The translations under genes and the position numbers were made by a program. 64,000 nt of DNA, taken from NCBI GenBank assembly GCA_017632945.1, contig JAGBQH010000001.1:6198-70197 (forward strand). The letters are read 5' to 3'. Below are positions 16,185 to 59,978 of this stretch, piece by piece. Position 1 is the stretch's first letter. Each line of letters opens with the position of its first letter. Below the pieces are notes generated by a model that was not told the origin of the DNA, did not search any database, and saw only the letters and a list, made by a program, of their open reading frames with translations. This DNA comes from Aeriscardovia sp. (lineage in GTDB: Bacteria; Actinomycetota; Actinomycetes; Actinomycetales; Bifidobacteriaceae).

Positions 16185-18026
16185 TTACTTTTCATCCTTT
16201 AGGCAGGGCTTAAGCACTTCTTTGATAGCTTCCTTTAGTTTTACCTCATAGGAAGCAAAAGATTGGGCATCGTACATCATCAAGTTCATGGCCGACGCTC
16301 TTAAGGTAGTAAGGTGCGAAGAGGAGTCCCACGGTGAAGTAATGCCAATCTTCCTTATGAAGTCTAGGCAACTGTCTCCATATTCCCCTTTAGCAAAGTC
16401 AGTGTGGCTGGTCAAAATGGGTTTTAGATAAGGCATGCCCGAATAAATGGAAGTTTGAATGAAGAAGTTCTGGTTGAGTTCATTCATGGCCTTTAGGTCG
16501 GTATTTCCTTCTATATTGAACACCCAGTCAACCATATTGAAGTCCGGGTAATAAATGGTGTGGGACTTTATCTTTTTCCCTTCTACTTCCACTTCGAGTT
16601 CTGACATGAACTTGTAGAAGTTCCTCGCCCCTTCCATGGACCTGCCGATGATCTTTCCGTAACCTGTAATGTTTAGCGGAAGCACCCTATGAGCTGCCCA
16701 TACCGCGGCTGCGGCCGCTCCGGCCTTGGATCCCTCTAGGATGTAGGGTCCAATTTGGACGGGAGGATCTATAGTCTTGTCGAAAACGTAGGAAGCGAAA
16801 TAGGAAATTGCATTCCTCATCCTTTCGTCCCTTATGACAATCCCGCCCGCAGTGTAGGGGACATATCCCATTTTGTGAGGATCTACCGTTATTGAATCCA
16901 CTTCCGAAAGTGCCTTAAGAGATTCATAGTCATCTTTGGAAATGGTGTTGCTCAAATCCTGGAAGACCTCATTTTCTCTGAGTTCATGCTCGAGATCGGC
17001 ATAGGGGATGACGTCATAGTTGGAATCTAGGATTATGGACCTAGCGTACCCGCCGTAGGCGCAGTCGGCATGCAGATAGAAGTTAATTCCCTTCTTTGCA
17101 AAGTTCTTGCGAAGGGCGCAAATCTTGTCAATGTGGTCTATTGCGCCTTCCTCGGTAGTGCCTACAACTCCTACTACTCCCAGTACCGGTATTTTTTGGG
17201 CGCCAAGATCCTCTATTGTCTTTTCCAATACGTCTATCTTCATCCTGTAGTGATCATCTACAGGAATCATTATGACTTGATCCATTCCGACGCCGGTTAT
17301 ATCGGCAGCCTTAAGCCAGCTGTAGTGCTTAGTTGCCGGAATAATCCACTTGCCCAGGTCCTCTATTCTCTTGCCGCTTCTGGCAGACTTCCTCTTGACC
17401 AGATCAAGATCTACTTCGCTTAGGCCGGACATGAGATCGATTATTTTTTCTATGGGCATATTCAAGAGTTCCCAGTCGCTCTTTCCGGCAACCAGTTCAG
17501 GCTTTACTTCCTTCATGGCCAAAGGAAGGCTCTTTACGTTTCTGGCGTACCAGAGAGCTTCAAGATTGGCTATAGAGCCGTCTGCACAGATATGTCCCCA
17601 GCCGTTGGGGAAGCTAAAGAGCTTGGCAAAATCCCTTCCCACTTCTTCCTCTAGGAAGGAAGTGGCGGGAGATCCTTCGTAGGAAACGTTGTTTTCGTTC
17701 CACAGCATTCCGAAATAGTACCCGAGCAAGGCGGGAATGAGGGTTTCGGAGTTCATGTGGCCCCAGTACCTGGCCGATTCCCACGGCACTGAGCCTTTTC
17801 TCATCCTCACCGACAGTTCTTCCATGACAGTCTTGAGCCTTTGGACCGTCTGCTGGAAGGCGGGAGAAGCCTGCTCGGTGGGAGAAATAAGAGGAGGATC
17901 TTGAGGCATATAGTTTTGCCTCCAACCCAGATGCTCGTCTATCAAATGGCTCAGGAGAGACTTAAAAAGCTCCCCGTTTTCGGATTTGCTTCCGATGAGC
18001 AACGCGTTTATGTCGATTTCCTCCAT
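16185..18026 (-). CDS. tdc: PLP-dependent tyrosine decarboxylase (Enterococcus/Lactobacillus TyrDC type)
   Basis: DEHLGWRQNYMPQDPP, YWGHMNSETL, AMKEVKPELVAGKSDWELLNMP and the PLP-lysine motif TVDPHKMGY. I prefer ATG 18026 (AAGGAG 6 nt upstream) over the track's TTG 18032. Confidence 0.9.
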   Translation of the reverse strand: MEEIDINALLIGSKSENGELFKSLLSHLIDEHLGWRQNYMPQDPPLISPTEQASPAFQQTVQRLKTVMEELSVRMRKGSVPWESARYWGHMNSETLIPALLGYYFGMLWNENNVSYEGSPATSFLEEEVGRDFAKLFSFPNGWGHICADGSIANLEALWYARNVKSLPLAMKEVKPELVAGKSDWELLNMPIEKIIDLMSGLSEVDLDLVKRKSARSGKRIEDLGKWIIPATKHYSWLKAADITGVGMDQVIMIPVDDHYRMKIDVLEKTIEDLGAQKIPVLGVVGVVGTTEEGAIDHIDKICALRKNFAKKGINFYLHADCAYGGYARSIILDSNYDVIPYADLEHELRENEVFQDLSNTISKDDYESLKALSEVDSITVDPHKMGYVPYTAGGIVIRDERMRNAISYFASYVFDKTIDPPVQIGPYILEGSKAGAAAAAVWAAHRVLPLNITGYGKIIGRSMEGARNFYKFMSELEVEVEGKKIKSHTIYYPDFNMVDWVFNIEGNTDLKAMNELNQNFFIQTSIYSGMPYLKPILTSHTDFAKGEYGDSCLDFIRKIGITSPWDSSSHLTTLRASAMNLMMYDAQSFASYEVKLKEAIKEVLKPCLKDEK

Positions 18027-18028
18027 TA

Positions 18029-19549
18029 TCAACTCCTTAATTGATCCTCAGGTTCCATCGAATCTTGAACTATGTCGCTTTCATCTCCCATTCCACGCAC
18101 CAGGCTCGGGCGCAGCTGAACGGCGGGGATGACTCTGTGTTCCCTAGTGTAGTTTTGCAGGTATTTCTGTGCCGTAAGGGCCCAGCGATCCCTGCGGAAG
18201 TGGTGGAGAATAAGCGGGAAGACGGCAAAGATTAAAGTGAAGACTATCATCACTACAGCGCTTGCCCTCGAGCTTGCAGCTATTGCCGTAACAGCTATGA
18301 ATATCAGGCCAGACCAAAGGAAGATAGCCCACATCCATGCCAGGCCGTTTCCTTTCTTACCAATTCTGTAAGGACGCTTTAATTCTTTAGCTTCATATCT
18401 GAGTCGTATGAAAGCTATGGCAATAAGAGTATAAACCACTACGTAAAACATGGTGGTGGTGTTGGTCATTAGCATGAAGATCTGGTTTACATCCGGAAGA
18501 GCGTAAAGTAGAGCGAAGAGAGTGATAAGGCTAGCCTGGGCAATTAGGATAGGCTTGGAGACGCCCAGATCATTGTGCTTGTAGAAGCGCCATGAAGAAG
18601 GAACCAAACCTTCATTTGCAACCTGAATCATGGTCTGGCTGGGGCCGGTAACCCATCCGGAAAGAGCTACGAGCACGCCTATAAAGCTCATGCAGCTAAA
18701 AACGTTGTTAAGCCACTGGGGCCAACCCAGTATCTCGCAGAACAGCACTATGGGCTGGGAAATATTGGCGAGCTGGATGTTGCTGGAAGTGACGACGTTT
18801 GCCATAAGGAAGGCGTCTATTATGTTCATAAGCACAACGGCTATCAGAGCTATCATGAGGCCCTTGGCAAAATTCTTCGTAGAGTTCTTAATCCTAGGGA
18901 TATAAACGCCCAGAGTGGAGATGCCACAGAAGATAAAGGCGATGGAAGCCACATACTGAAGGCTTTCTCCCTGCGGCAAAAGCTCCTGCCAATGGAAAGT
19001 TCCCAGCACCATTCCAGGCTTGATGCCGGTCTTAATCATGGCTCCAAGGCCCAAAACCAGCATAAAGACGACCGGAATGTAAATACCCAACCATGTGCCG
19101 ATATCGCCGCCGATTTTGGCCATATCAAACTTAAGGTTGAGGAGAGTTACGAACCAATAGATAACTATGATGCTGCACATCACAAACCAGTGGTTGTTGC
19201 CAAGGGGAATATTACTTATGGTGTTTCCAAACAACGGTCCCAGGGGAGCTGCTACCATAACCATGCCTGGAAACATCTGAGCCCATAAAAGCCAGGCCAC
19301 AACAAATCCCCATTTATCGCTTAACCCCCTGCGCACCCATCGCTGAGGTCCACCTTCGCCTGGCAGCATGGCTCCAAGCTCTCCACACATCAGCGCCAAA
19401 GGCAAGGCGAAAAACACCACGGAGATGATCATGTATATGATCATCTGCCATCCCGTGGCAGCCAATTGTGGGATGCTTCGCACGGAGGCTATAAGAGCCA
19501 TAGCTATACCTACAAAGGTACTCAGAGAGATTTTAATCTGATCGCTCAT
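18029..19549 (-). CDS. tyrP: APC-superfamily amino-acid antiporter, probable tyrosine:tyramine exchanger
   Basis: 506 aa, about 12 TM helices, GadC/TyrP-like N-terminus. The stop lies 2 nt before the tdc ATG. The substrate is inferred from context. Confidence 0.75.
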   Translation of the reverse strand: MSDQIKISLSTFVGIAMALIASVRSIPQLAATGWQMIIYMIISVVFFALPLALMCGELGAMLPGEGGPQRWVRRGLSDKWGFVVAWLLWAQMFPGMVMVAAPLGPLFGNTISNIPLGNNHWFVMCSIIVIYWFVTLLNLKFDMAKIGGDIGTWLGIYIPVVFMLVLGLGAMIKTGIKPGMVLGTFHWQELLPQGESLQYVASIAFIFCGISTLGVYIPRIKNSTKNFAKGLMIALIAVVLMNIIDAFLMANVVTSSNIQLANISQPIVLFCEILGWPQWLNNVFSCMSFIGVLVALSGWVTGPSQTMIQVANEGLVPSSWRFYKHNDLGVSKPILIAQASLITLFALLYALPDVNQIFMLMTNTTTMFYVVVYTLIAIAFIRLRYEAKELKRPYRIGKKGNGLAWMWAIFLWSGLIFIAVTAIAASSRASAVVMIVFTLIFAVFPLILHHFRRDRWALTAQKYLQNYTREHRVIPAVQLRPSLVRGMGDESDIVQDSMEPEDQLRS

Positions 19550-24743: not shown

Positions 24744-25115
24744 CTACTTAGCCTTCTTCGTTCCGTACAGGGAGCGGCCCTGCTTGCGATCTTTTACGCC
24801 CTGGGTATCAAGGGCTCCACGCACGATGTGGTAACGCACTCCAGGCAGATCCTTTACCCTTCCGCCCCTCACAAGAACTATGGAGTGCTCCTGAAGGTTG
24901 TGCCCTTCGCCGGGAATGTAGGCGGTGACTTCGTACCCGGAGCTCAGCTTCACACGGGCCACTTTCCTCAAGGCGCTGTTAGGCTTCTTAGGAGTGGTGG
25001 TGTAAACACGCGTGCAAACTCCCCTGCGCAGAGGGGATCCCTTAAGGGCCAAAGTCTTGGATTTCTTCGTCTTTGGCTTGCGTCCGTTTCGGACAAGTTG
25101 TTGGATTGTAGGCAT
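24744..25115 (-). CDS. rpsL: 30S ribosomal protein S12
   Basis: [12 protein letters not shown]...[17 protein letters not shown]. The start is set at MPTIQQL; the 19-aa upstream extension in the track is rejected. Confidence 0.97.
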
Positions 25116-25339
25116 CCGACCCCTTTTTATTTTGCGGGCCGGGAGCGCATAATGCGCCCTGTGCACAGCCAACGCCCACCGGCCCGATGGTTTTTCTAAT
25201 TTATAAAAAGAAAAAATACCTGCGCCGCGCGCAAGTAAGCCCTTCGATCTTACACTTTCCGGCCTTCTTTTGGCAATCGCAATCTATAGATATAGGGAAA
25301 ATGTAGGATATTAGTGTAATTTACACAGAAAGACGTCAA

Positions 25340-26185
25340 ATGAGCAAAATCGACATCTCCAGCGCAGCCTGTTCCGACATAGGGCTTAAGAGGGCAGATA
25401 ACCAAGACTCTTATCTTGAAGAGACGGGACTGTACCTGGTGGCTGACGGCATGGGGGGAGGAGTAAAGGGAAGACAGGCGAGCGCCACATGCTTATCTGT
25501 GATGGAGAAGTTAAGCAACTCTAAAGTAAGAACCAAAAAAGAGATCGCAGGCTGCATGCAAGAGGCCCAGGAGGTAGTGGGGGAAATAGGGGCCAGGGAA
25601 GGGGGCGTTGCCGGAACCACCTTAAGCGGCCTCATTTTAAAAGACACGGATATGGAAGAAGAAGGAAACGCGTGGTATGTGGTAAACGTGGGAGATTCTA
25701 GGACCTACCACTTATCCATGGGGGAATCCGGCCTGGACAGATCCACTTTTGAACAGATCACCCACGATCACTCTGAACAACAAAAGGCCGTAGACACCGG
25801 TAAATACCTTCCCAACCAGGCGGCAAAGCTCATTCCAAGAAACCTCATCACCCAAGCCATAGGTTCTCCTTCCCCCCTGCATCCCGATTTTTACAGAGCC
25901 GATTTGGAAGGCCGTTTTATAATCTGCTCTGACGGAATTTATACCCAGATGAACCTAAACAGGCTTGTAAACCTCTGCTCGGCCAATAAAAGCCCGGATG
26001 AAGTAGCGCATTCTCTAGTAGAAGCTGCCATAGACGGCGGGGGAAGCGATAACGCCACAGTAATAGTGGTCGACGTGAAAGTCTCAAGCCAGGAGGGGTG
26101 GCTGGTGCAAAAACTCTCTGAAGAAGAAGACATAGACTTCATGTCGGATGCCACCATGGAAAACCTGCACGTTCCAAGGGAGTAA
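25340..26185 (+). CDS. Cytosolic PP2C-family Ser/Thr phosphatase
   Basis: RADNQDSY, LVADGMGGG, ICSDGIY, GGSDNATVIVVDV. No TM segment. Confidence 0.9.
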   Translation: MSKIDISSAACSDIGLKRADNQDSYLEETGLYLVADGMGGGVKGRQASATCLSVMEKLSNSKVRTKKEIAGCMQEAQEVVGEIGAREGGVAGTTLSGLILKDTDMEEEGNAWYVVNVGDSRTYHLSMGESGLDRSTFEQITHDHSEQQKAVDTGKYLPNQAAKLIPRNLITQAIGSPSPLHPDFYRADLEGRFIICSDGIYTQMNLNRLVNLCSANKSPDEVAHSLVEAAIDGGGSDNATVIVVDVKVSSQEGWLVQKLSEEEDIDFMSDATMENLHVPRE

Positions 26186-26194
26186 GGAGAAATT

Positions 26195-26650
26195 ATGGTA
26201 GATTACGACGTCGCATGCCAGGCCGTTCAAGATGAGAACGCCGACCCATGTCTGCTCGCCCTAATAGCCTATGAAAATCCGGATTTTACCCCGAATGTGG
26301 CAAGCCATCCGAGGGCTTACCCCGGTCTTTTGGCTTGGATTGCCCGCTTCGGAAATGAAGAAGCGAAAAAAATTGTGATGAGGAGGCTCTCTACCGAATC
26401 CAACCCTCTTTCCCTCTCTTCGACCCATGAGGACTCTGTTTCTTACACTCCCCAGCAGGCGATGGAAGTAAAAGATGCCTTTGTGCAGCATGACATTGCC
26501 AAAAACTTCCCGGAACTTAGAAAGTACCTGGCGCAAAATCCCAACTGCTATGCCGAGCTTATAGAATGGCTCGCAAATCTAGATGACCCCCAGATCAACG
26601 AAGCCCTCCAAAAGAGGAGGGCCGTTCAAGAGCAAGATCCTACTCTATAG
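26195..26650 (+). CDS. Small protein with two leucine-rich-repeat-variant (LRV)-like repeats
   Basis: RBS AAGGAG. Repeats NVASHPRAYPGLLAWIARFGNEEA and YLAQNPNCYAELIEWLANLDDPQINEAL resemble the NP..P..L..LA.D LRV pattern. The family call comes from pattern memory only. Confidence 0.55.
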   Translation: MVDYDVACQAVQDENADPCLLALIAYENPDFTPNVASHPRAYPGLLAWIARFGNEEAKKIVMRRLSTESNPLSLSSTHEDSVSYTPQQAMEVKDAFVQHDIAKNFPELRKYLAQNPNCYAELIEWLANLDDPQINEALQKRRAVQEQDPTL

Positions 26651-27142
26651 AAATCTCGTAAAACTCGTCTCCCAATCTGAGCAGCAGTCCCTGCTCTAGC
26701 TTTATAGGGCAGTGGGGTTTAGATCTGCTTTCCGCTTCTCCGATTACGTAAGTCCCGTTGAGAGATCCCAGATCTTGCACATAAGCGTTCTTCTGCCCAT
26801 CAAAGTAGATGAGGGCATGAGACCTTGAAATCGTCCTCGTCGGATCCGACAGCGTAACTTCCTCCCCCCTGCCCTCAGAAGAAGGCTTGCGGCCTAAAAC
26901 AGAGTCATGGCTTATCCGGATGGTGGAATTGCTAGAGGTATTCCTCAAAATCACAGTTCCGCCCGACTTTGCCGGCGCCAAATGCTTTGGTTCGCTGTAC
27001 TTGCGCGCGGCCTCTATCCCGGAAAAATCAGATTTGTCCAGGTACTGGGTCAATCCGTGCTGCTGGGCCCAAATGCGATCTTCCGGATACCACCCAAAGA
27101 CGGGAGGTTCGGGAAAAGGCCTTACGGAGTCAGACTGATCCA

Positions 27143-27143
<1 letters not shown>
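26640..27143 (-). CDS. FHA-domain protein translationally coupled to rpoC
   Basis: C-terminal FHA signature LGRKP...TISRSHALIYFDGQKNAYVQDLGSLNGTYV. Its ATG shares nt 27143 with the rpoC TGA. Confidence 0.82.
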
Positions 27144-31294
<4,151 letters not shown>

Positions 31295-31326: not shown

Positions 31327-34300
31327 CTAAAGATCTAAAGATTCAAACAGCGGTTTTTCTGGCCTGGCGGAGAGGTTTATGCCCAGGCTCTGGGTGCTGG
31401 AAGCGGATTTGTCTCCGCTTTCTTTGCTCAGATCTATCGGCTCTCCGCTGGAGTTGAGAACCTCGACATTCAAAGCCAAAGACTGCATTTCCTTAAGGAG
31501 GACCTTGAAGGATTCAGGAATTCCTCCCGCCATCAGATTCTCGCCCTTGACTATGGCCCCGTAGGCTTTCACCCTTCCGTCCATGTCGTCGGACTTTACC
31601 GTCATAAGTTCATGGAGGGTATAGGCGGCCCCGTAGGCCTCCAGAGCCCACACTTCCATCTCTCCAAACCTCTGGCCTCCAAATTGGGCTTTTCCGCCAA
31701 GAGGCTGCTGGGTAATCATGGAGTAAGGCCCGGTTGCCCTGGTGTGTATTTTGTCGTCTACCAGGTGGTGGAGTTTAAGCATGTACATGATGCCTACCGA
31801 TATCGGCTTGGGGAAGGGTTCTCCGGTTCTCCCGTCGTAGAGGATGGCTTTTCCGGAGGAATCTACAAGCTTTTCTCCGTCAGGGCCGGGAAGGGAGGTT
31901 TTAAGAAGGCCGTCCAACACATCGTCTTTCACTCCGTCAAACACGGGGCTGGCCACCAGCGTACCGGGTTCTGCCTTACGCGCCTTTTCGGGGATTTCCA
32001 GCTTCCACTTGTAGTTTCCGGGATCCAAATCGGCATTCCAACCCGTCTTCGCTATCCAGCCGAGGTGCAGCTCCAAAATCTGGCCCAAATTCATTCGGGA
32101 GGGGACGGAGAGGGGGTTTAGCATGATATCTACCGGGGTGCCGTCCGCAAGGAATGGCATATCCTCTTCGGGAAGGATCCTAGCCACGGTGCACTTGTTT
32201 CCATGGCGCCCCGAAAGCTTGTCTCCTACGCTTATCTTTCTGTGCTGAGCCACGTAGACTTTTATGATTCGGTTTATGCCGCTCGGGATCTCTTCTCCGT
32301 CTTCGCTGGCATTTTCGCGGGTGATTTCCTTTATTGAAATCACAGTTCCGCTCTCTCCGTGGGGCAGGCGCAAAGATACGTCCCTTACTTCCCTGCTCTT
32401 TTCTCCAAAGATCGCCCTAAGCAGCCTCTCTTCGGGGTTCAGCTCGGTTTCGCCTTTAGGCGTCACTTTGCCCACAAGGATGTCTCCGGCCTTTACCTTT
32501 GCCCCCACCCTTACGATTCCGTTTTCGTCAAGGTTGGCCAGCATCTCGTCTGAGCAGTTGGGAAGGTCGCGGGTGATCTCTTCGGGGCCGAGCTTGGTGT
32601 CTCTGGCGTCTATTTCATAGCCCTCTATGTGGATGGAACTCAAGCTGTCGTCTTTTACCAGCCTCTGGCTGATGATGGTGGCATCCTCGTAGTTGTAGCC
32701 GTTCCACGGCATGAAGGCGATGATGAGGTTCTTTCCGAGGGCCAGCTCTCCTTGCTCTATGGCAGGGCCATCTGCGATCACGCTTCCCTTTTCCACCCTG
32801 TCTCCTACCGAAACTATCGGCTTTTGGTTGTAGCAAGTGGTCTGGTTGCTCCTTTGGAATTTTTCAAGAGTGTAGACCTCTTCGCTGCTGTCGTCCTGCA
32901 CCACCTTGATGGTGTCGGCAGAGACGTAGGAAACGGTTCCGCCCTCCTTGGCTATAACGCAGTCGCCCGAGTCGTAGGCCGTTCTCCATTCGCTTCCGGT
33001 TCCCACCAGGGGCGCATCGGGCTTTATGAGTGGCACGGCCTGCCTCTGCATGTTGGCGCCCATAAGGGCCCTGTGCCCCTCATCGTGCTCGAGGAAGGGG
33101 ATGAGAGAAGATCCAATAGAGACCATCTCCCTCGGGGAGACGTCCATGTAGTCCACTTCGTCGGAAGGTACGTCAACCGCCTCTTCCTTTCCGTCTCTGG
33201 CCAGGGCGGTGGGAGTTTCAATCCTGTTTTCCTTGTCCAGCTTCTGGCTGGCCTGGGCTATTACGTGGTGCTCTTCCTGGTCGGCTGTCATGTAGGTGAT
33301 GTCGTCTGTGACCTTCCTGTTTACCACCCTTCTGTAGGGAGCCTCTATAAAGCCGTAGGTGTCGATCTTGGCGAAAGTGGCAAGGGATCCGATAAGGCCG
33401 ATGTTCGGGCCTTCGGGAGACTCTATCGGGCACATCCTTCCGTAGTGCGAAGAGTGTACGTCTCTTACTTCCATTCCAGCCCTGTCTCGGGTAAGGCCTC
33501 CGGGCCCCAAGGCCGACAGCCTCCTCTTGTTAGTGATGCCGGCGAGGGGGTTATTTTGATCCATGAACTGCGAAAGCTGGGAAGTTCCGAAGAATTCCTT
33601 TATGGTAGTGGAAATCGGGCGTACGTTCAGAAGCGAAGTGGGGGTGATTGAGGCTGCATCCTGGGTGGCCATCCTCTCCCTTATCACCTTTTCCATGCGG
33701 TTGAGCCCGCTTCTTATCTGGTTTTGTATAAGCTCGCCTACCTGCCTTATATGGCGGTTGGCGAAGTTGTCGATGTCGTCGACTTCTACCGGGATTTCGA
33801 CGCTCACCCCGTCTTTTATGCCCTCTATCGTCTTTTTGCCTGCCGCCAAAGCCGAAATATAGCGCAGGGAAGCTATGATGTCTTCCTTTGTAAGCCACCG
33901 CATCTCCGGGTCGATGGAAAGGCCAAGCTTTTGATTGATCTTGTATCTTCCCACGCGTGCCAAATCGTAACGCCTGTGGTTGAAGTAGAAACTGTCGAGC
34001 AGAATTTTTCCGTTCTCGGCAGAAGGGGTGTCGTTTGGACGCACGAGCTGGGCTATCTTTTTAAGGGCGCCGTCCCTGGCTTCTTCCTTGCTTCCGGCTA
34101 TGGCCTGCTCTTTTATAAGCTTTCTTACGGTCTCGCAGTCCTTAAATTCCTCTTCTATTTCTTCTACGCTCATTCCCATCGCCTGAAGGAAGACGATTAC
34201 GGGAACTTTTTTGCGCCTGTCTACTCTTATGTCAAGCTTGCCGGCCTTATTTATTTCAAATTCAAGCCAGGCCCCGCGCGAGGGAATGATGCGGCCGCTA

Positions 34301-34875
34301 AATATCTCCTTATCTTTTTCAGAGTCGGGAATGGATCCGCGATCAAAATAAACGCCCGGGCGTCTGACGAGCTGGGAAACTACTACCCTCTCGGCGCCTG
34401 CGATAATGAAGGTGCCCCTGGGAGTCTGGAGGGGAAAGTCTCCCATGAAGACTGTCTGAGACTTCATTTCTTCAGTGTCGTTTTTTATAAAGTCTGCTTG
34501 AACAAAGAGGGGTGCCGAATAGGTATAGCCCTGCTCTTTGCATTCTTCCCATGTGTGCTTAGGCTCGTCCAAGTGGGGGCTGTGAAATTCCAGCCTCATG
34601 GTTTTGGCGTAATTTTCTATAGGGGAGATGTCTTCAAAAACTTCTTCCAGGCCGCTTACTCGCGGTACATAGGAAGTGCCGTTTTTCTTATCTTCCTCTA
34701 CCTTCTTTTTCCAGCGCTCGTTTCCTATCAGCCAGTCAAAAGAGTCCGTTTGCACGTCCAACAGGTTTGGAAGCTCTATGGGCTCTTTTATCGTGGCAAA
34801 GCTGAGGCGCTTAGGCGCTTTGTGAAGGGATATTAAGACATTTTCGTCTTCAGAGTTATTCTGTTCGTCAATCAA
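31327..34875 (-). CDS. rpoB: RNA polymerase beta subunit
   Basis: 1182 aa, TTG start, [13 protein letters not shown] (rifampicin cluster I), [19 protein letters not shown]. Confidence 0.98.
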
Positions 34876-50805: not shown

Positions 50806-52479
50806 TTGAGCCTAAAACAGGAAGGCCTGTACGGCAGACTTGAGAATTTATCAGCCTCCGAGTATGAAAAACCCCCGAAAAACGGAAGGCTGAAGCGAAT
50901 CGGGGAAATAATAGGGGTCTTAAGAAGATATGATGCCCTAAGGGGTATGAGCCCTGAAAAACTATGCAAAATACTGCAGGCCCTTGGCCCTACCTTTGTA
51001 AAAGTGGGCCAGATTCTCTCCATGCGCTCTGAAATTCTCCCCCAGGCCTATTGCGAAGCTCTGGCTTCTTTGAGATCGCACGCCGACCCCATGCCCTACA
51101 GCACGGTTTTAAATACCTTGGAGCACGAGTACGGAAGAAATCTTTCCGAAATCTTCGATTTTATCGATCGAAAACCTTTGGGATCGGCTTCCGTGGCCCA
51201 GGTCCACTACGCCAAACTTGTCACAGGCGAATCGGTAGCGGTAAAAGTGCAAAGGCCCGGCGTGCGGGAAATGATGGCCCAGGACATCGCGATAATAAGG
51301 TCGGTCGTGAAATTTGCCATGCGGATTGGAAAAGACTCCCAGCTTTTCGATCTTAAGGGCGTAGTCGAAGAGATCTGGACAAGTTTTAGGATGGAGACAG
51401 ATTTTTTGGTGGAAGCCAGAAATCTGCAGGAATTTAGGGAATTTACCGACCAGTTCGCATACATGGACTGCCCCAAGGTTTATATGTCCCTGTGTACCCA
51501 CAAGGTAGTCGTGATGGACTACATCCAGGGCATCCCCCTTGCCCATACCCGGGAGTTAAAAGAGGAAGGCTACAGCCTTAAAGAAATTGGCACCAAACTT
51601 GTAGACAATTACGCTTCTCAAATTCTGGATCGCGGATTTTTCCATGCAGACCCCCACCCCGGAAACATAATAATCAGGGGCGGGCAAATTGTACTTATCG
51701 ATATGGGCATCATGGGCAGGTTAAACGCCCACACCAGAAACATATTAAGAGACATAATTTTTGCCCTTGCAGTACAGGACTCTGCCAGCATAGAAGAAAG
51801 CCTTTTAAAGCTTTCCCCTCCCGCCACCGCCGTTTCCATCAACCGGGCGAACCTTCTTTCTGATATCGACATAATAGTTTCAAACTTTGCCACGATAGAT
51901 TTGCAGGATCTGAACATGGGGGAATTCATTCTCTCCCTCCTCCAGCTCATGCAAAGAAATGGCCTTGAAATTCCTTCCAGCCTTATCCTCGTTTCCAGGG
52001 CGCTTGTAACTCTTGAGGGAACAATTTCCGAATTTATCCCCGATGTGAACATGGTGGAAATAATCGAAAACCACTTAAAAGAAAACGGCATGAGGAAGGG
52101 AATTAAAAAGGAAATTTCTACTCTAAGCGCAGAAAGCCTTCAAGCTACCCACGGCCTCCTGGAATCCCTTTCTTACTCAAAGACGGCTGTAAAGCAGCTT
52201 ACGAGGGGAAACTTGAAAATTAACGCCGAGCTGGTAGGATCCCAAACTCCCTTAAGGCAGCTAAGTTACATAATCGACCGGCTTACGATGGCAATAATAA
52301 TAGCGGGGCTTTTTGTGGGCTCTTCCATCGTTTACTACGCGCGAATCCGGCCCGTAGTGTTTGGAATACCGATAGTAGGCATGCTGGGCTACATCGTGGC
52401 TTTCTGCCTGGGAGTGTGGATAATAGTTGACAGCATGCGGAGAAACCACCAGCTGCGGAAAAAATCTAGGCATAAATAA
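50806..52479 (+). CDS. ABC1/UbiB-family atypical kinase with two C-terminal TM helices
   Basis: LGPTFVKVGQILSMRSEILP, PLGSASVAQVHYA, VAVKVQRPGV, FFHADPHPGNI; TTG start. Confidence 0.88.
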   Translation: MSLKQEGLYGRLENLSASEYEKPPKNGRLKRIGEIIGVLRRYDALRGMSPEKLCKILQALGPTFVKVGQILSMRSEILPQAYCEALASLRSHADPMPYSTVLNTLEHEYGRNLSEIFDFIDRKPLGSASVAQVHYAKLVTGESVAVKVQRPGVREMMAQDIAIIRSVVKFAMRIGKDSQLFDLKGVVEEIWTSFRMETDFLVEARNLQEFREFTDQFAYMDCPKVYMSLCTHKVVVMDYIQGIPLAHTRELKEEGYSLKEIGTKLVDNYASQILDRGFFHADPHPGNIIIRGGQIVLIDMGIMGRLNAHTRNILRDIIFALAVQDSASIEESLLKLSPPATAVSINRANLLSDIDIIVSNFATIDLQDLNMGEFILSLLQLMQRNGLEIPSSLILVSRALVTLEGTISEFIPDVNMVEIIENHLKENGMRKGIKKEISTLSAESLQATHGLLESLSYSKTAVKQLTRGNLKINAELVGSQTPLRQLSYIIDRLTMAIIIAGLFVGSSIVYYARIRPVVFGIPIVGMLGYIVAFCLGVWIIVDSMRRNHQLRKKSRHK

Positions 52480-56858: not shown

Positions 56859-59800
56859 TTAAAACCCGTGCTTCTTTGAAAAAGTGCCAGAAGAGGTATG
56901 CCTCTTCTTCCTAATTCCCCACCACACTCCTGCCCCCAAAAGGAAGAGGAAGGAGGAGGAAAGAGAAAGAGACAATATGCCTTTTCCTCCCGTTAAGGGA
57001 AGACGGGGGGTGGGAGTAGGAGTGGGAAGCGGGATACCGCAAAAATGGTCAGATCCCTTCAGGACAGAATCTGCCTTAAAGGCAGAAGAATAAGAAGACT
57101 GATTTATTATTCCAAGATATCCATCTTGAACCTTCCACTGAAAAGAGCCCGGCACGTTACCAGTACCCTGCTCATTTTCGGTATTATCAATCGATCCCTT
57201 TCCCTCCAAACTTTCCGGCGAGGAATAAGAAAGGGAACCGGTAAAGGAAATCGCGGGATACTGGGTGCTCTTTACAGTGTATGTCCCGTCTTGCAATCCC
57301 CCAAAGGAATAGATCTCACTTTCAAAACTAGTGCTCTTCTCAACAAAGTCGTAAGGGGAAGAAGAAAACTGCCAGCCTTCAAAAGTACCGCCGTCTTCTA
57401 CAGGAGTGAGGTACTGGCCCGAAGAATTTTGAACTGTAAACTGTGTCAGATTGGCCATTTCAAGATCGCACTCAGACACAATAATGAGGTTTATAAACCA
57501 GAGGCCCATAGAAGAAGAAGGGGAGGAAGTGGGGGGATTAGGGGCGGATGCACTATTGGTATTTGCCCACTGGGTCATAGAATTGACATACTCTGAGAGG
57601 GCGGAGGGGAGGGAATTGTCTGCAGGGCCGTTAGTTTCAACCTCCGGCGTCAGGAGAAGGTTGGAATAAGACTTGGGCGGTATATACTTTAGACTGCTTG
57701 AGTTAGAGGCAAGTATCGGATCCATTTTATATGTGAAATTGTAGGTGGAAGAGGCTGAGGAAGTAAAGGAAGTGTTCAGGTAGGCCTGCCACTCTATGGA
57801 GAGGGTGTGGTTGGTCACCCCGTTTTGAGTAAGCATACCCGAAGAAGGCAGAGGAAGACTTCCCTTGCTGATTATTTCCGCTATGGCCGCAGGGTTTAAA
57901 GTTACTTTGAGGCTGGAACTTGAAAGCGAAACCGAGGCCCCCTGAAGGGAGGAAATGGGAAGTCCATTTGCCTTAAGGCTGCTTTGAACTATGGTTTGAC
58001 CAGGGATCGAAAGGGAGAAGACGACGTCAGTTGCATTGGGTACCGACTGCAGATGATCGCTTCCCTTCAATATAGATCCCCTTTCATTGGCAAAAGCGGA
58101 AGAAAACTCTTGCTCAAAATTTGCATTGCCGTATGGAAGATAGGCTTCAGCCTGGTAGGTATAGGGAAAGTCTGATCCTACTGTGGAAGTGAAGTTGGAA
58201 GAAGAAAGGGAAGAATCTTCCACTCTGGATACTGAGGGATTTTCGGCTCCTACAACGACCTGTTGTAGATAAGCGTCACCAGGGGATGACGAAATGTAAT
58301 TTAGAAATCCGTTAAAAGTCAGACCCCATGAACCAGCATAAAAACTGTCAGGATCTCCTAGATTTTCTAGGGGAGACGAATACTCTATAGTGGGAGCCTG
58401 GTAGTAGGAACCGTAAGAGACGCTCTGTCCTTCCTGGTTTACTCCTGATATAGGGGTTATGTTACAGGTTACATCCCGATCTGGAGTTACAAATATCTGC
58501 ACTTCGGATCCCTCAAAGGTAAGGGTGTCGCCCTGGGAGGAAGTTGCAACTTGGGTTCCCGAAGGGACTCCGATGTCTCCGAGCGGGACATTGGAATTTG
58601 AATCCGTATATACGTAGGGTATGGAGTTTGTAGGATTGCCCATGTTATAGCTATAGGTAGAGTAACTATCAACAAGCACCGTTACCGACTTTAAGGGTTT
58701 CCCATCTTGTCCCACGGCAGGAAAAGACATTTCCCCGTTTGCCGCCGCTTCGTTTATAGTCTCCCTTCCCCTAGGCGCCTTTTTCGTCAGCACAGTACCC
58801 TGGGAAGGTTTGGACACAAGAGAGCTTTTTAAACCAGAAGAATTAGGAGAAGACTTGCCGTCGGGAGCGGAAGATGAAGACACCTCAGGCGCCAGCCCCA
58901 CTTTTTTCCCTTCAGGGTTCTTCTCCCCCCATGCTTCGTACTCAAATTCAAAAGACGAAGAAGGGGATTCTTTGGAGGAAGGGTCTAAATAGGCCTCAAA
59001 GGTTATGGCTATTTCCCTGTTTGCATTTCCCTCTTGGGTTAGGGGGGAAGTGGAAGGGAGGGGGACTTCCCTTTTTTCCTCTATGGTTTCAAGCGCCAGA
59101 GGGGAAAAGGCAATGGAGGAAGAAGAGGAGGAGAGGGAAGCCCCCTTTAATGATGAGAGAGGAATCCCGTTTACTTTTATGCTTCCTTTTACAAGAGTTT
59201 GAGAAGAGAGGAAAAGGGAGAAAACGAGGGGAGTCAAAGAAGCGACCTTCCCCTTTGCATTCTTTCCCGCTTGAGCGAAAGGAAGGAAGCTTTCGACTTG
59301 ATAAGTGTAAGGGTGGGAAGAGCCGGGCAGCGAAGTGAAAGGAGAAGAAGATGCTTTGCTCCCCTCTATCCTTTCCGAAGACGGGTTAAGGGACCCCACA
59401 GTAACTTCCTTTTCCTTCGCATTTACAAATCCGCAGGGGTCAGAAACCGAAGTCAGGGTTTCAGAATTTGAAGAGAGGTTTACTTCAAATGTGGGAGAAA
59501 GAAAATAAGAGCCGTAAGAAAGAGTCTTTCCGCTTTCGCTTTCTCCCCCCTGCACGGTAAGGTCGTACTTCCCGGGCTTTGCCTCAAAGGAAAACGCCCC
59601 GTTTTCCGTATGCGTTAAATCTATCAAGTCTCCCTTTTTGGAGTAAGAAACCGTCGATCCCTTTGGAACGCTAAAGGAAGAGGGGGAGGGGGAAAGCGAG
59701 GAAGCGTTGGAAGAGTTGGTAGAGGGGGAAGTTAAAAGCAGCTTCACCTCCTTAACTTTTTGTCCGTTTTCTCCTTCCGCCCTAAAGTAGAGCTCTTTAA

Positions 59801-59978
59801 AGTCAGAATTGGCGGCGGAGGAAGAAGGAGAAACCGAGGGCGTCTGCGGGGAAGACTTCTTTACCGCAGCCATGGCCGCAAAGGCTACCCCAGTCCCTAT
59901 ACCTCCGGCCACCAATACGGCTACTGCAGAAAGCAGGGCTATTAATTTCTTTCTTTTTTTAATTCTCCTCTTTTTCAT
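56859..59978 (-). CDS. LPXTG-anchored serine-rich surface protein with duplicated ~320-aa modules and a C-terminal SpaA/Cna-B-like domain
   Basis: Signal peptide MKKRRIKKRKKLIALLSAVAVLVAGG. Sortase signal LPLTG (56988..57002) plus TM helix plus basic tail. FTVQNSSGQYLTPVEDGGTFEGW...GLQDGTYTVKSTQYP resembles pilin/adhesin prealbumin-fold domains. Confidence 0.85.
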   Translation of the reverse strand: MKKRRIKKRKKLIALLSAVAVLVAGGIGTGVAFAAMAAVKKSSPQTPSVSPSSSAANSDFKELYFRAEGENGQKVKEVKLLLTSPSTNSSNASSLSPSPSSFSVPKGSTVSYSKKGDLIDLTHTENGAFSFEAKPGKYDLTVQGGESESGKTLSYGSYFLSPTFEVNLSSNSETLTSVSDPCGFVNAKEKEVTVGSLNPSSERIEGSKASSSPFTSLPGSSHPYTYQVESFLPFAQAGKNAKGKVASLTPLVFSLFLSSQTLVKGSIKVNGIPLSSLKGASLSSSSSSIAFSPLALETIEEKREVPLPSTSPLTQEGNANREIAITFEAYLDPSSKESPSSSFEFEYEAWGEKNPEGKKVGLAPEVSSSSAPDGKSSPNSSGLKSSLVSKPSQGTVLTKKAPRGRETINEAAANGEMSFPAVGQDGKPLKSVTVLVDSYSTYSYNMGNPTNSIPYVYTDSNSNVPLGDIGVPSGTQVATSSQGDTLTFEGSEVQIFVTPDRDVTCNITPISGVNQEGQSVSYGSYYQAPTIEYSSPLENLGDPDSFYAGSWGLTFNGFLNYISSSPGDAYLQQVVVGAENPSVSRVEDSSLSSSNFTSTVGSDFPYTYQAEAYLPYGNANFEQEFSSAFANERGSILKGSDHLQSVPNATDVVFSLSIPGQTIVQSSLKANGLPISSLQGASVSLSSSSLKVTLNPAAIAEIISKGSLPLPSSGMLTQNGVTNHTLSIEWQAYLNTSFTSSASSTYNFTYKMDPILASNSSSLKYIPPKSYSNLLLTPEVETNGPADNSLPSALSEYVNSMTQWANTNSASAPNPPTSSPSSSMGLWFINLIIVSECDLEMANLTQFTVQNSSGQYLTPVEDGGTFEGWQFSSSPYDFVEKSTSFESEIYSFGGLQDGTYTVKSTQYPAISFTGSLSYSSPESLEGKGSIDNTENEQGTGNVPGSFQWKVQDGYLGIINQSSYSSAFKADSVLKGSDHFCGIPLPTPTPTPRLPLTGGKGILSLSLSSSFLFLLGAGVWWGIRKKRHTSSGTFSKKHGF

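What the first reader, a model, noticed from the sequence alone, without database searches (positions are those of the whole stretch)
26640..27145. FHA-domain protein translationally coupled to the end of rpoC
The ATG of a 167-aa protein overlaps the rpoC stop (TGATG, shared nt 27143). The protein has a C-terminal FHA phosphothreonine-binding domain (GRKP..SRSHALI..DLGSLNGTYV). It should therefore be made from the rpoB-rpoC mRNA, in step with RNA polymerase. I know of no described rpoBC operon that ends in an FHA protein. The N-terminal ~80 aa (PFPEPPVFGWYPEDRIWAQQHGLTQYLD) match no family I recognise. The protein could be an RNAP- or ribosome-associated phospho-signalling adaptor.
Basis: partly seen in the sequence, partly recalled or inferred. 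Interest (0 to 1): 0.65.

Follow-up and report, generated by a model that had tools for sequence, protein, structure and literature searches.

The report
PFNA-cluster FHA gene captured by rpoC
A small phosphothreonine-binding (FHA) protein gene really does start on the stop codon of the RNA polymerase gene rpoC, but it belongs to a known bifidobacterial kinase/phosphatase gene cluster, and one Aeriscardovia lineage fused it to rpoC by losing the terminator that separates the two genes in all other relatives examined.

Summary
On the minus strand rpoC (27143-31294) ends in TGA, and that stop overlaps the ATG of a 167-aa ORF (26640-27143) with a C-terminal FHA domain (Pfam E 7e-12). The ORF is under purifying selection (dN/dS 0.06-0.13). 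The TGATG/TAATG junction is kept in all six related Aeriscardovia genomes.

The protein is the orthologue of 'fha', gene 8 of the bifidobacterial PFNA cluster (pkb2-fn3-aaa-duf58-tgm-prpC-hypothetical-fha). In every locus whose downstream flank I could read, it sits next to an LRV_2 repeat protein, and usually a PP2C phosphatase as well. Here these are 26195-26650 and 25340-26185, convergent to the FHA gene. Some B. longum-like contigs carry an LRV_2-FHA fusion ORF.

Nine relatives outside the window clade were examined. One does not show the rpoC end, and one places the FHA gene away from rpoC but still beside LRV_2/PP2C/PFNA. The other seven have a strong terminator hairpin after rpoC, and in four of them other genes also lie between rpoC and the FHA gene.

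The coupling is therefore a derived, clade-specific operon capture. It is not evidence of an RNAP-bound adaptor. The most likely role is a phosphothreonine adaptor of a Ser/Thr kinase/PP2C module. That biochemical role is untested.

The parts
27143..31294 (-). rpoC (RNA polymerase beta' subunit, 1383 aa) with a long acidic C-terminal tail. Its TGA stop is at 27145-27143.
   Evidence: ORF list and translation. 84-97% identical to rpoC of L001-L006. Pfam RNA_pol_Rpb1 domains on the orthologues.
27141..27145 (-). TGATG stop/start overlap between rpoC and the FHA gene (shared nt 27143).
   Evidence: Read directly. TGATG or TAATG at the same place in L001-L006.
26640..27143 (-). The FHA gene (167 aa), orthologue of the PFNA-cluster 'fha' of Bifidobacterium.
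   Evidence: Pfam FHA E 7e-12. dN/dS 0.06-0.13. The family profile finds about 20 full-length 50%-identity clusters, and every cluster whose source names an organism is from Bifidobacteriaceae.
27069..27119 (-). Family-specific N-terminal motif, residues 9-25 (PFPEPPVFGWYPEDRIW). P11, P14, G17, W18, Y19 and D22 are invariant in 63 family members. A short helix (residues 20-28) follows.
   Evidence: Alignments A2 and A4. pLDDT 75-82 with the deeper alignment. No Pfam match. Unique in the window.
26952..26957 (-). Thr63-Val64, kept in at least 90% of the family, immediately before FHA strand beta-1. Candidate phospho-acceptor or pseudo-substrate (inferred only). It corresponds to the D-W-D-[GS]-T-V-L motif of Bifidobacterium members.
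   Evidence: Alignment A4. Sequences.
26643..26960 (-). FHA domain (residues about 62-167) with all canonical phosphothreonine-binding residues: G84-R85, S106-R107-x-H109, S127-x-N129-G130.
26195..26650 (+). Convergent gene for a 151-aa protein with two LRV_2 repeats (equivalent to PFNA gene 7, BLGT_RS02790). Its last 11 nt overlap the 3' end of the FHA gene (26640-26650).
   Evidence: Pfam PF25591 E 9e-34. Adjacent to the FHA gene in every locus whose downstream flank is held. Fused to FHA in P0232/P0234/P0235.
25340..26185 (+). PP2C-type Ser/Thr phosphatase (281 aa; equivalent to PFNA gene 6, prpC), directly upstream of the LRV_2 gene.
   Evidence: NCBIfam Stp1/IreP model E 1e-39, but 136.5 bits is below the curated cut-off of 230. 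Pfam PP2C scores 22.5 bits against 20.3. Conserved in L001-L006, L008, L010-L012.
26603..26622 (-). Hairpin GCCCTCC-N6-GGAGGGC, then TTCGTT, starting 17 nt after the FHA stop and lying inside the LRV_2 coding end. The only candidate 3' end signal for an rpoBC-fha transcript, and a weak one.
   Evidence: Kept in L001-L003, degenerate in L004-L006. Not called by the terminator scan.
24744..25115 (-). rpsL (123 aa from the MPTIQQL start), first gene of the rpsL-rpsG-fusA-tuf block that bounds the locus.

Best explanation
The ORF is a functional gene for the Bifidobacteriaceae-specific FHA protein that the literature calls 'fha', the eighth gene of the PFNA cluster.

Architecture (shown):
- An invariant N-terminal P-x-P-P-x-x-G-W-Y-x-x-D motif followed by a short helix.
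- A variable, disordered linker.
- A near-invariant Thr-Val.
- A canonical FHA domain with an intact phosphothreonine pocket.

Functional neighbourhood (shown): it is always next to an LRV_2 repeat protein and usually a PP2C phosphatase. In Bifidobacterium these continue into tgm-duf58-aaa-fn3-pkb2, where pkb2 is a Hanks-type kinase.

Ancestral state (shown in 7 of 7 outgroup loci where the rpoC end was examined): rpoC ends in a strong intrinsic terminator, and fha is either a separate unit with its own Shine-Dalgarno sequence or, in B. longum, the last gene of the PFNA operon.

Derived state in the window's Aeriscardovia clade (shown): the terminator/promoter spacer is gone, and the fha ATG overlaps the rpoC stop.

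Inferred:
- In this clade fha is made from the rpoBC mRNA by termination-reinitiation, so it is expressed constitutively and scales with rpoC transcript level.
- The protein acts as a phosphothreonine adaptor or switch in a Ser/Thr kinase-PP2C circuit. The FHA pocket would bind a pThr on the kinase or a substrate. The N-terminal motif would bind a partner, with the LRV_2 protein as the best candidate. Thr63 may serve as a GarA/OdhI-style intramolecular phospho-switch.

The link to rpoC is one of gene order and expression, not evidence of a physical link to RNA polymerase.
For: - Identity. A profile of the window clade plus one relative finds about 20 full-length clusters that share both the N-terminal motif and the FHA domain. 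Every cluster whose source names an organism is from Aeriscardovia, Bifidobacterium or unclassified Bifidobacteriaceae; several clusters carry no name. A family profile finds 280 proteins at E <= 1e-10, including B. longum at E 1.9e-62.
- B. longum locus. It reads fn3-aaa-duf58-tgm-(62 aa)-LRV_2-FHA, convergent on rpoC. This matches the published PFNA gene order, with fha = BLGT_RS02785.
- Constant partner. LRV_2 is adjacent in the window, L001-L006, L008-L018. In L016 the FHA gene is unlinked from rpoC but still beside LRV_2/PP2C/tgm. LRV_2-FHA fusion ORFs exist.
- Derived coupling. Hairpins of -27 to -59 kcal/mol follow rpoC in L008, L010, L011, L012, L015, L017 and L018, with a T-run in L008, L010, L011, L012 and L015. 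L014 has inverted-repeat hairpins in the convergent spacer. The window clade has a 0-nt spacer.
- Shine-Dalgarno. Most stand-alone orthologues have an SD-like purine run about 6-10 nt upstream; the window clade has none nearer than 13 nt.
- Functional gene. dN/dS is 0.06-0.13, and the pThr-binding residues are invariant.
Against: - No transcript or protein data exist for Aeriscardovia. An internal promoter in the 3' part of rpoC cannot be excluded: one weak promoter-like match lies 600 nt upstream, at chance frequency.
- No Hanks kinase and no PFNA core gene was found among the 10 large ORFs of the window that I scanned, so the cognate kinase in this organism is unknown.
- The FHA gene lies within about 5 kb of rpoC in every locus examined but one. 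That leaves some room for a transcription-related role.
- The LRV_2 interaction and the Thr63 switch are inferences from adjacency, fusion and conservation. I could not run a co-fold: the mixed alignment A3 was misaligned, and the tool reports no contacts.
- The fusion ORFs could be read-through mutants or sequencing errors in metagenome contigs.
Confidence: 0.72

Rival explanations
1. The FHA protein would be an RNA-polymerase- or ribosome-associated phospho-signalling adaptor. It might bind a phosphorylated site on RpoC, such as the Ser/Thr/Asp-rich C-terminal tail. The coupling to rpoC would then exist to co-produce the two partners.
For: - The FHA gene lies within 0-5.3 kb of the rpoC 3' end in the window, L001-L008, L010-L015, L017 and L018.
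- The overlap is kept across a clade whose synonymous sites are saturated, with dS > 1.
- The PFNA review states that in vitro Pkb2 substrates include transcription and translation proteins.
- RpoC tails in this family are long, acidic and Ser/Thr-rich.
Against: - A strong terminator hairpin follows rpoC in every relative outside the clade where that end was examined.
- Unrelated genes (GDPD, CmpB-like, FtsX/ABC/luciferase) are inserted between rpoC and fha in several lineages.
- The orientation is reversed in B. longum.
- fha is fully unlinked from rpoC, but not from LRV_2/PP2C, in Bifidobacterium sp. ESL0775.
- From my own knowledge, not tested here: the rpoC-rpsL interval is a conserved-synteny region in Actinomycetota where lineage-specific genes sit passively.
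Confidence: 0.1
2. The protein would be a GarA/OdhI-type metabolic regulator: a small FHA protein that inhibits or activates a central-metabolism enzyme. Kinase phosphorylation of an N-terminal Thr would switch it off, with the phospho-Thr folding back into its own FHA pocket.
For: - Same overall plan: about 60 disordered N-terminal residues plus a C-terminal FHA domain, 167 aa.
- A near-invariant Thr lies just before the domain.
- GarA and OdhI are among the sequence and fold hits.
Against: - The NCBIfam OdhI model scores 24.5 bits against a cut-off of 200.
- No ETTS motif is present.
- The invariant PxPPxxGWYxxD motif has no counterpart in GarA.
- The conserved neighbours are LRV_2/PP2C/PFNA, not metabolic genes.
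- From my own knowledge, not tested here: bifidobacteria lack the 2-oxoglutarate dehydrogenase target.
Confidence: 0.1
3. The overlap would be neutral genome compaction with no effect on expression. fha would still be transcribed mainly from a promoter now embedded in the 3' coding part of rpoC, and translated independently.
For: - Genes are tightly packed around the locus: the fha/LRV_2 3' ends overlap by 11 nt, and similar 7-nt overlaps or 11-nt gaps occur in relatives.
- A purine-rich GAAGGAAG/AGGA stretch lies 13-29 nt upstream of the ATG.
Against: - There is no promoter-like match within 600 nt upstream, and promoter matches in the region are at chance level.
- The Shine-Dalgarno spacing is poor.
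- With no terminator, rpoBC read-through into fha is unavoidable whatever else happens.
Confidence: 0.08

Closest known systems
fha (BLGT_RS02785), eighth gene of the PFNA operon of Bifidobacterium longum GT15 (pkb2-fn3-aaa-atp-duf58-tgm-prpC-BLGT_RS02790-fha)
   Same: - Same protein family: N-terminal PYPxPPExGWYxDD motif, linker, (D)WD[GS]TV, FHA domain. Profile E 1.9e-62.
- Same neighbours: an LRV_2 protein and a PP2C.
- Same chromosomal site next to rpoC.
   Different: - In B. longum fha is co-directional with the PFNA genes and co-transcribed with them, and it converges on rpoC across a 158-nt spacer that contains inverted-repeat hairpins.
- Here fha is inverted relative to LRV_2/PP2C.
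- Here the five core PFNA genes are absent from the locus.
- Here fha overlaps the rpoC stop codon.
- The window protein is shorter (167 aa against 212), with most of the linker deleted.
GarA (Mycobacterium) / OdhI (Corynebacterium) FHA regulators
   Same: Small actinobacterial protein with a disordered N-terminus, a C-terminal FHA domain and an intact pThr pocket. A conserved Thr lies N-terminal to the domain, so a phospho-switch is plausible.
   Different: - Fails the OdhI model (24.5 bits against 200).
- No ETTS motif.
- Different conserved N-terminal motif.
- Different genomic partners.
FhaB/FipA (Rv0019c) and FhaA (Rv0020c) of the mycobacterial pknB-pstP division/cell-wall cluster
   Same: FHA proteins encoded beside a PP2C phosphatase and Hanks kinases. 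The FhaA FHA domain is among the best fold matches (3po8, 3oun, 2lc1).
   Different: - The FhaB model scores 27.4 bits against a cut-off of 125.
- The locus has no pknA/pknB/rodA/pbpA neighbours.
- The N-terminal region is unrelated.
Translational coupling by overlapping stop/start codons (TGATG/ATGA type) in bacterial operons
   Same: A one-nucleotide overlap of the upstream stop and downstream start, with no Shine-Dalgarno sequence at normal spacing. This is the classic termination-reinitiation layout.
   Different: The upstream gene is rpoC. In the relatives examined here rpoC is the last gene of its transcription unit and is followed by a terminator hairpin.

Membership tests
FHA domain (Pfam PF00498) | Profile match above the gathering score | tested here: met
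   46 bits against a cut-off of 20.7, E 7.2e-12, residues 91-158.
FHA domain (Pfam PF00498) | Conserved phosphothreonine-binding residues: Gly-Arg, Ser-x-x-His, Asn-Gly | tested here: met
   G84-R85, S106-R107-S108-H109 and N129-G130 are invariant in 63 family members.
FHA domain (Pfam PF00498) | 11-strand beta-sandwich fold | tested here: met
   The AlphaFold models give 11 strands with pLDDT 80-90. Foldseek hits FHA structures at probability 1.0 and TM-score (target-normalised) up to 0.76.
FHA domain (Pfam PF00498) | Actual binding of a phosphothreonine peptide | not testable with these tools
   Needs biochemistry.
PFNA-cluster fha family of Bifidobacteriaceae | Full-length homology to B. 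longum fha, including the N-terminal motif | tested here: met
   The B. longum protein P0314 scores E 1.9e-62 against the family profile and carries LPYPPAPELGWYSDD and DWDGTVLS. P11, P14, G17, W18, Y19 and D22 are invariant.
PFNA-cluster fha family of Bifidobacteriaceae | Adjacent to the gene-7 protein (LRV_2) and prpC (PP2C) | tested here: met
   LRV_2 at 26195-26650 and PP2C at 25340-26185. Same neighbours in relatives.
PFNA-cluster fha family of Bifidobacteriaceae | Linked to the five core PFNA genes (pkb2, fn3, aaa-atp, duf58, tgm) and transcribed in the same direction | tested here: not met
   At this locus PP2C is followed directly by rpsL. No core gene was found among the 10 large ORFs of the window that I scanned. 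fha is convergent to LRV_2/PP2C. Whether the core genes exist elsewhere in the genome could not be tested.
GarA/OdhI (NCBIfam NF041660) | Equivalog model score above the cut-off; N-terminal ETTS phospho-acceptor motif | tested here: not met
   24.5 bits against 200. No ETTS in the sequence.
FhaB/FipA (NCBIfam NF049868) | Equivalog model score above the cut-off | tested here: not met
   27.4 bits against 125.
Translationally coupled gene pair | Overlapping or abutting stop and start on the same strand, with no intervening terminator | tested here: met
   TGATG. No terminator-like site on the minus strand between 27145 and 26640. Conserved in 7 of 7 clade genomes.
Translationally coupled gene pair | Downstream translation depends on upstream translation | not testable with these tools
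   Needs reporter fusions with a displaced rpoC stop codon.

The most novel reading that the evidence does not exclude
The FHA adaptor physically connects Ser/Thr-kinase/PP2C signalling to RNA polymerase. It might do this by docking on a phosphorylated threonine in the long acidic Ser/Thr-rich C-terminal tail of RpoC that Bifidobacteriaceae carry. On this reading, the near-universal placement of fha next to the rpoC 3' end, which culminates in translational coupling in this Aeriscardovia clade, reflects selection for co-production of the two partners.
Probability: 0.07. Interest if true: 0.75.

Novelty: new variant of a known kind. Interest (0 to 1): 0.33.

Why it matters
The finding is a clean natural example of operon capture: a signalling gene is placed under the RNA polymerase operon by loss of a terminator.

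Three points bear on bifidobacterial biology.

- It revises the published picture of the PFNA cluster. The review (PMC8430577) reports all eight genes, fha included, only in four species. In fact fha is widespread in Bifidobacteriaceae but usually inverted, convergent on LRV_2. The review describes the cluster genes as transcribed in one direction, which may be why inverted copies were not counted.
- The PP2C-LRV_2-FHA trio persists in Aeriscardovia at a locus that lacks the kinase, fn3, aaa, duf58 and tgm genes. This suggests the trio is a self-standing signalling module.
- It gives concrete, testable handles for a protein family with no known function: the invariant PxPPxxGWYxxD motif, Thr63, and the LRV_2 fusions.

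It does not open a long-standing question about transcription.

Tried and rejected
- A word-index homologue search with the single protein found only close Aeriscardovia relatives plus one 34%-identical protein. The exhaustive profile search was needed to see the family.
- The genome-contig scan used exact peptide patterns, so it returned only the window clade. The cap then prevented a second scan, so broader contexts came from the look-up of encoding contigs.
- I tried to prepare an AlphaFold run of the natural LRV_2-FHA fusion with a mixed alignment (A3). MAFFT placed the second LRV_2 repeat under the FHA half, and the structure tool reports no contacts. I dropped this and used the last structure job for a deeper FHA-only alignment.
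- I tested whether the N-terminal GWYP[ED]D motif is a DUF2510-like or other known domain. There was no Pfam hit at E <= 10 for four family N-termini.
- The built-in terminator scan missed the L010 terminator, probably because A-T pairs let the stem extend into the T-run. RNAfold shows the hairpin at -27.5 kcal/mol followed by TTTTT.
- I looked for a terminator after fha in the window and found only a weak hairpin inside the LRV_2 coding end.
- Pseudogene or chance-ORF readings are rejected by dN/dS and the domain match.
- Rfam found only tRNAs in the window.
Full report
**1. What is in the sequence**

The window is from an Aeriscardovia species (Bifidobacteriaceae). The finding's protein is 96% identical to that of a goat-abomasum MAG, and five further ruminant MAGs carry it. 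On the minus strand the gene order is:
- rpoB (31327-34875)
- rpoC (27143-31294, 1383 aa)
- the 167-aa ORF (26640-27143)

Further along the minus strand come rpsL, rpsG, fusA and tuf. Between the ORF and rpsL, two plus-strand genes converge on it:
- a PP2C-type Ser/Thr phosphatase (25340-26185). The NCBIfam Stp1/IreP model gives E 1e-39 but 136.5 bits, below its cut-off of 230; Pfam PP2C scores 22.5 bits against 20.3.
- a 151-aa protein made of two LRV_2 repeats (26195-26650; PF25591, E 9e-34).

The rpoC stop and the ORF's start overlap as TGATG. The ORF cannot start further upstream, because an in-frame TGA lies 15 nt before the ATG. It has no alternative Met before its conserved motif.

**2. 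Is it a real gene with a real FHA domain?**

Yes.
- Pfam FHA matches at E 7e-12.
- Two AlphaFold models give an 11-strand sandwich for residues about 62-167 with pLDDT 80-90.
- Foldseek returns FHA domains (FhaA, GarA/OdhI, MDC1, ArnA) at probability 1.0.
- The phosphothreonine-binding residues G84-R85, S106-R107-x-H109 and N129-G130 are invariant in 63 relatives.
- Within the clade dN/dS is 0.06-0.13 while dS reaches 1.3-1.7, similar to the LRV_2 gene and somewhat less constrained than PP2C and rpoC.

**3. Is the junction conserved?**

All six related Aeriscardovia genomes keep rpoC-FHA, then the convergent LRV_2 and PP2C, then rpsL-rpsG. All keep TGATG or TAATG at the junction. No terminator-like site lies between rpoC and the ORF's end. 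The nearest Shine-Dalgarno-like purine run ends 13-15 nt before the ATG. Most stand-alone orthologues with a recognisable SD have it about 6-10 nt upstream. Termination-reinitiation from the rpoBC mRNA is therefore the simplest expression route in this clade. This is inferred, not shown.

**4. What family is it?**

An exhaustive profile search found about 20 full-length clusters at 50% identity. They share:
- an N-terminal motif, consensus [IL]P[YF]PxPPExGWYx[ED]D
- a variable low-complexity linker
- a (D)WD[GS]TV[LI] element
- the FHA domain

Every cluster whose source names an organism comes from Aeriscardovia, Bifidobacterium or unclassified Bifidobacteriaceae; several clusters carry no name. 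A second profile search found 280 proteins at E <= 1e-10, including B. longum, B. catenulatum, B. pseudocatenulatum, B. commune and bee-associated species. In a 63-sequence alignment P11, P14, G17, W18, Y19 and D22 are invariant, and T63-V64 are kept in at least 90%. With that alignment, residues 11-30 reach pLDDT 75-82 (helix 20-28), and residues 41-60 stay below 50. The N-terminal region matches no Pfam family.

**5. Genomic context in relatives**

This is the decisive evidence.

| Locus | Organism | Arrangement from rpoC to the FHA gene | Beyond the FHA gene |
|---|---|---|---|
| L010 | other Aeriscardovia lineage | 119-nt spacer | convergent LRV_2, PP2C, then rpsL |
| L011 | other Aeriscardovia lineage | 194-nt spacer | convergent LRV_2, PP2C, then rpsL |
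| L012, L007 | unnamed Bifidobacteriaceae | GDPD gene in between | L012: convergent LRV_2, PP2C, then rpsL; L007: contig ends |
| L008 | B. pluvialisilvae | CmpB-like gene on the opposite strand | convergent LRV_2, PP2C, tgm, duf58, aaa, fn3 |
| L015 | B. catenulatum subsp. kashiwanohense | 209-nt spacer | convergent LRV_2, tgm and onward; no PP2C |
| L017, L018 | Bifidobacteriaceae | FtsX/ABC and a luciferase-like gene in between | convergent LRV_2, PP2C, tgm and onward |
| L016 | Bifidobacterium sp. ESL0775 | rpoC not nearby; LacI, GH32 and ABC transporter genes upstream | convergent LRV_2, PP2C, tgm and onward |
| L013, L014 | B. longum | FHA gene converges on rpoC across 158 nt | fn3-aaa-duf58-tgm-(62 aa)-LRV_2-FHA, all co-directional |

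In L008, L010, L011, L012, L015, L017 and L018 rpoC is followed by a hairpin of -27 to -59 kcal/mol. A T-run follows it in L008, L010, L011, L012 and L015. The B. longum convergent spacer contains inverted-repeat hairpins. L007 was not examined for a terminator.

The constant neighbour of the FHA gene is therefore the LRV_2 gene, usually with PP2C. The terminator-less overlap with rpoC is confined to the window's clade, so by parsimony it is derived.

**6. Link to the literature**

The B. longum arrangement is the published PFNA operon: pkb2, fn3, aaa-atp, duf58, tgm, prpC, BLGT_RS02790 and fha (BLGT_RS02785). The review reports that all eight genes are co-transcribed in strain GT15 (PMC8430577, PMC10688814). 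[quoted passage not shown] It states that all eight genes occur together only in four species and that the cluster genes are transcribed in one direction. The contexts above show that fha is much more widespread but usually inverted. I found no paper describing an FHA gene coupled to rpoC.

**7. Further hints on partners**

Three contigs encode LRV_2-FHA fusion ORFs of 387-396 aa. In these the LRV_2 stop is read through into the in-frame 15-nt spacer. They could be real fusions or errors. If real, they argue that the two proteins work together.

The window's locus lacks the PFNA core. None of the 10 large ORFs of the window that I scanned is a Hanks kinase, MoxR ATPase, DUF58 protein or transglutaminase. 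In Aeriscardovia the PP2C-LRV_2-FHA trio therefore stands alone at this site.

**8. Most likely mechanism**

*Shown:* an intact FHA pocket; an invariant N-terminal Pro/aromatic motif; a near-invariant Thr-Val before the domain; constant adjacency to LRV_2 and PP2C; and loss of the rpoC terminator in this clade.

*Inferred:* the protein is a phosphothreonine adaptor or switch of a Ser/Thr kinase-PP2C circuit.
- The N-terminal motif binds a partner, with LRV_2 as the best candidate.
- Thr63 may act as an intramolecular phospho-switch as in GarA/OdhI.
- In this clade the protein is made constitutively from the rpoBC mRNA, at a level set by reinitiation efficiency.

Membership in GarA/OdhI and in FhaB/FipA was tested and failed, at 24.5 against 200 bits and 27.4 against 125 bits.

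**9. Rivals**

An RNAP-bound adaptor remains possible, because proximity to rpoC is frequent and Pkb2 is reported to phosphorylate transcription and translation proteins in vitro. The terminators, the inserted genes, the reversed orientation and the unlinked L016 locus all argue against it. I give it about 0.1. A GarA-like metabolic regulator and purely neutral compaction with an embedded promoter each get about 0.1 or less.

**10. Verdict**

The gene is a member of a family that is named in the literature but functionally uncharacterised. The coupling to rpoC is a new, lineage-specific arrangement. Interest is modest at 0.33. Most of the value lies in redefining the PP2C-LRV_2-FHA trio and in the handles it gives for experiments.

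Noticed in passing
window 26640-26650 (both strands); hairpin 26603-26622: The FHA gene and the convergent LRV_2 gene overlap by 11 nt at their 3' ends, with no intergenic terminator. The two mRNAs must therefore be antisense to each other over at least this stretch. Relatives show a 7-nt overlap (L017) or an 11-nt gap (L010). The only hairpin after the FHA stop lies inside the LRV_2 coding end.
   Followed up: partly
window 25217-25276 (-), upstream of rpsL: A promoter-like TTGCCA-18-TAAGAT is followed by a GC-rich hairpin and a T-run (TACTTGCGCGCGGCGCAGGTA TTTTTTCTTT), and then by the conserved rpsL leader (CCATCGGGCCGGTGG...). The layout is kept in L001-L006 with compensatory-looking changes in the loop and stem. 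It could be an attenuator in the rpsL leader, or a stop for antisense read-through coming from rpoBC-fha.
   Followed up: partly
P0232, P0234, P0235 (B. longum-like contigs): Natural LRV_2-FHA fusion ORFs of 387-396 aa. The LRV_2 stop codon is replaced, and the in-frame 15-nt spacer becomes a KDGII linker.
   Followed up: partly
L013/L014 9144-9332 (B. longum): In these B. longum genomes the PP2C (prpC) position between tgm and LRV_2 holds only a 62-aa ORF. It matches the last roughly 49 residues of the window's PP2C, so it looks like a remnant rather than an active phosphatase.
   Followed up: partly
L008, L015, L016, L017, L018: In several Bifidobacterium and Bifidobacteriaceae genomes fha is present but convergent to the PFNA genes. 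The published statement that all eight genes, fha included, occur only in four species probably undercounts fha.
   Followed up: yes
window 56859-59978 (-) and 60148-63969 (-): Two very large adjacent ORFs (1039 and 1273 aa) have no Pfam match at E <= 1e-5.
   Followed up: no
window 16185-19549 (-): A tyrosine-decarboxylase-type PLP enzyme (615 aa) sits next to an amino-acid permease (506 aa). This is the layout of a decarboxylation/antiport acid-resistance system, which would be plausible for an abomasum inhabitant.
   Followed up: no
window 50806-52479 (+): An ABC1/UbiB-type atypical kinase (557 aa; PF03109, E 3e-70). It is the only kinase-like protein among the 10 large ORFs of the window that were scanned.
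   Followed up: no
window 27146-27330 (-), and the rpoC 3' ends of L008, L010-L012: RpoC in these Bifidobacteriaceae ends in a disordered tail of about 80-120 aa that is strongly acidic and Ser/Thr-rich. It differs in sequence and length between lineages. Its function is unknown.
   Followed up: no
P0009 (ENA contig, 987 nt): A 146-aa predicted protein whose last roughly 57 residues are 98% identical to the window's FHA C-terminus, while its N-terminus is unrelated (PF28588). It is probably a chimeric or rearranged metagenome contig.
   Followed up: no
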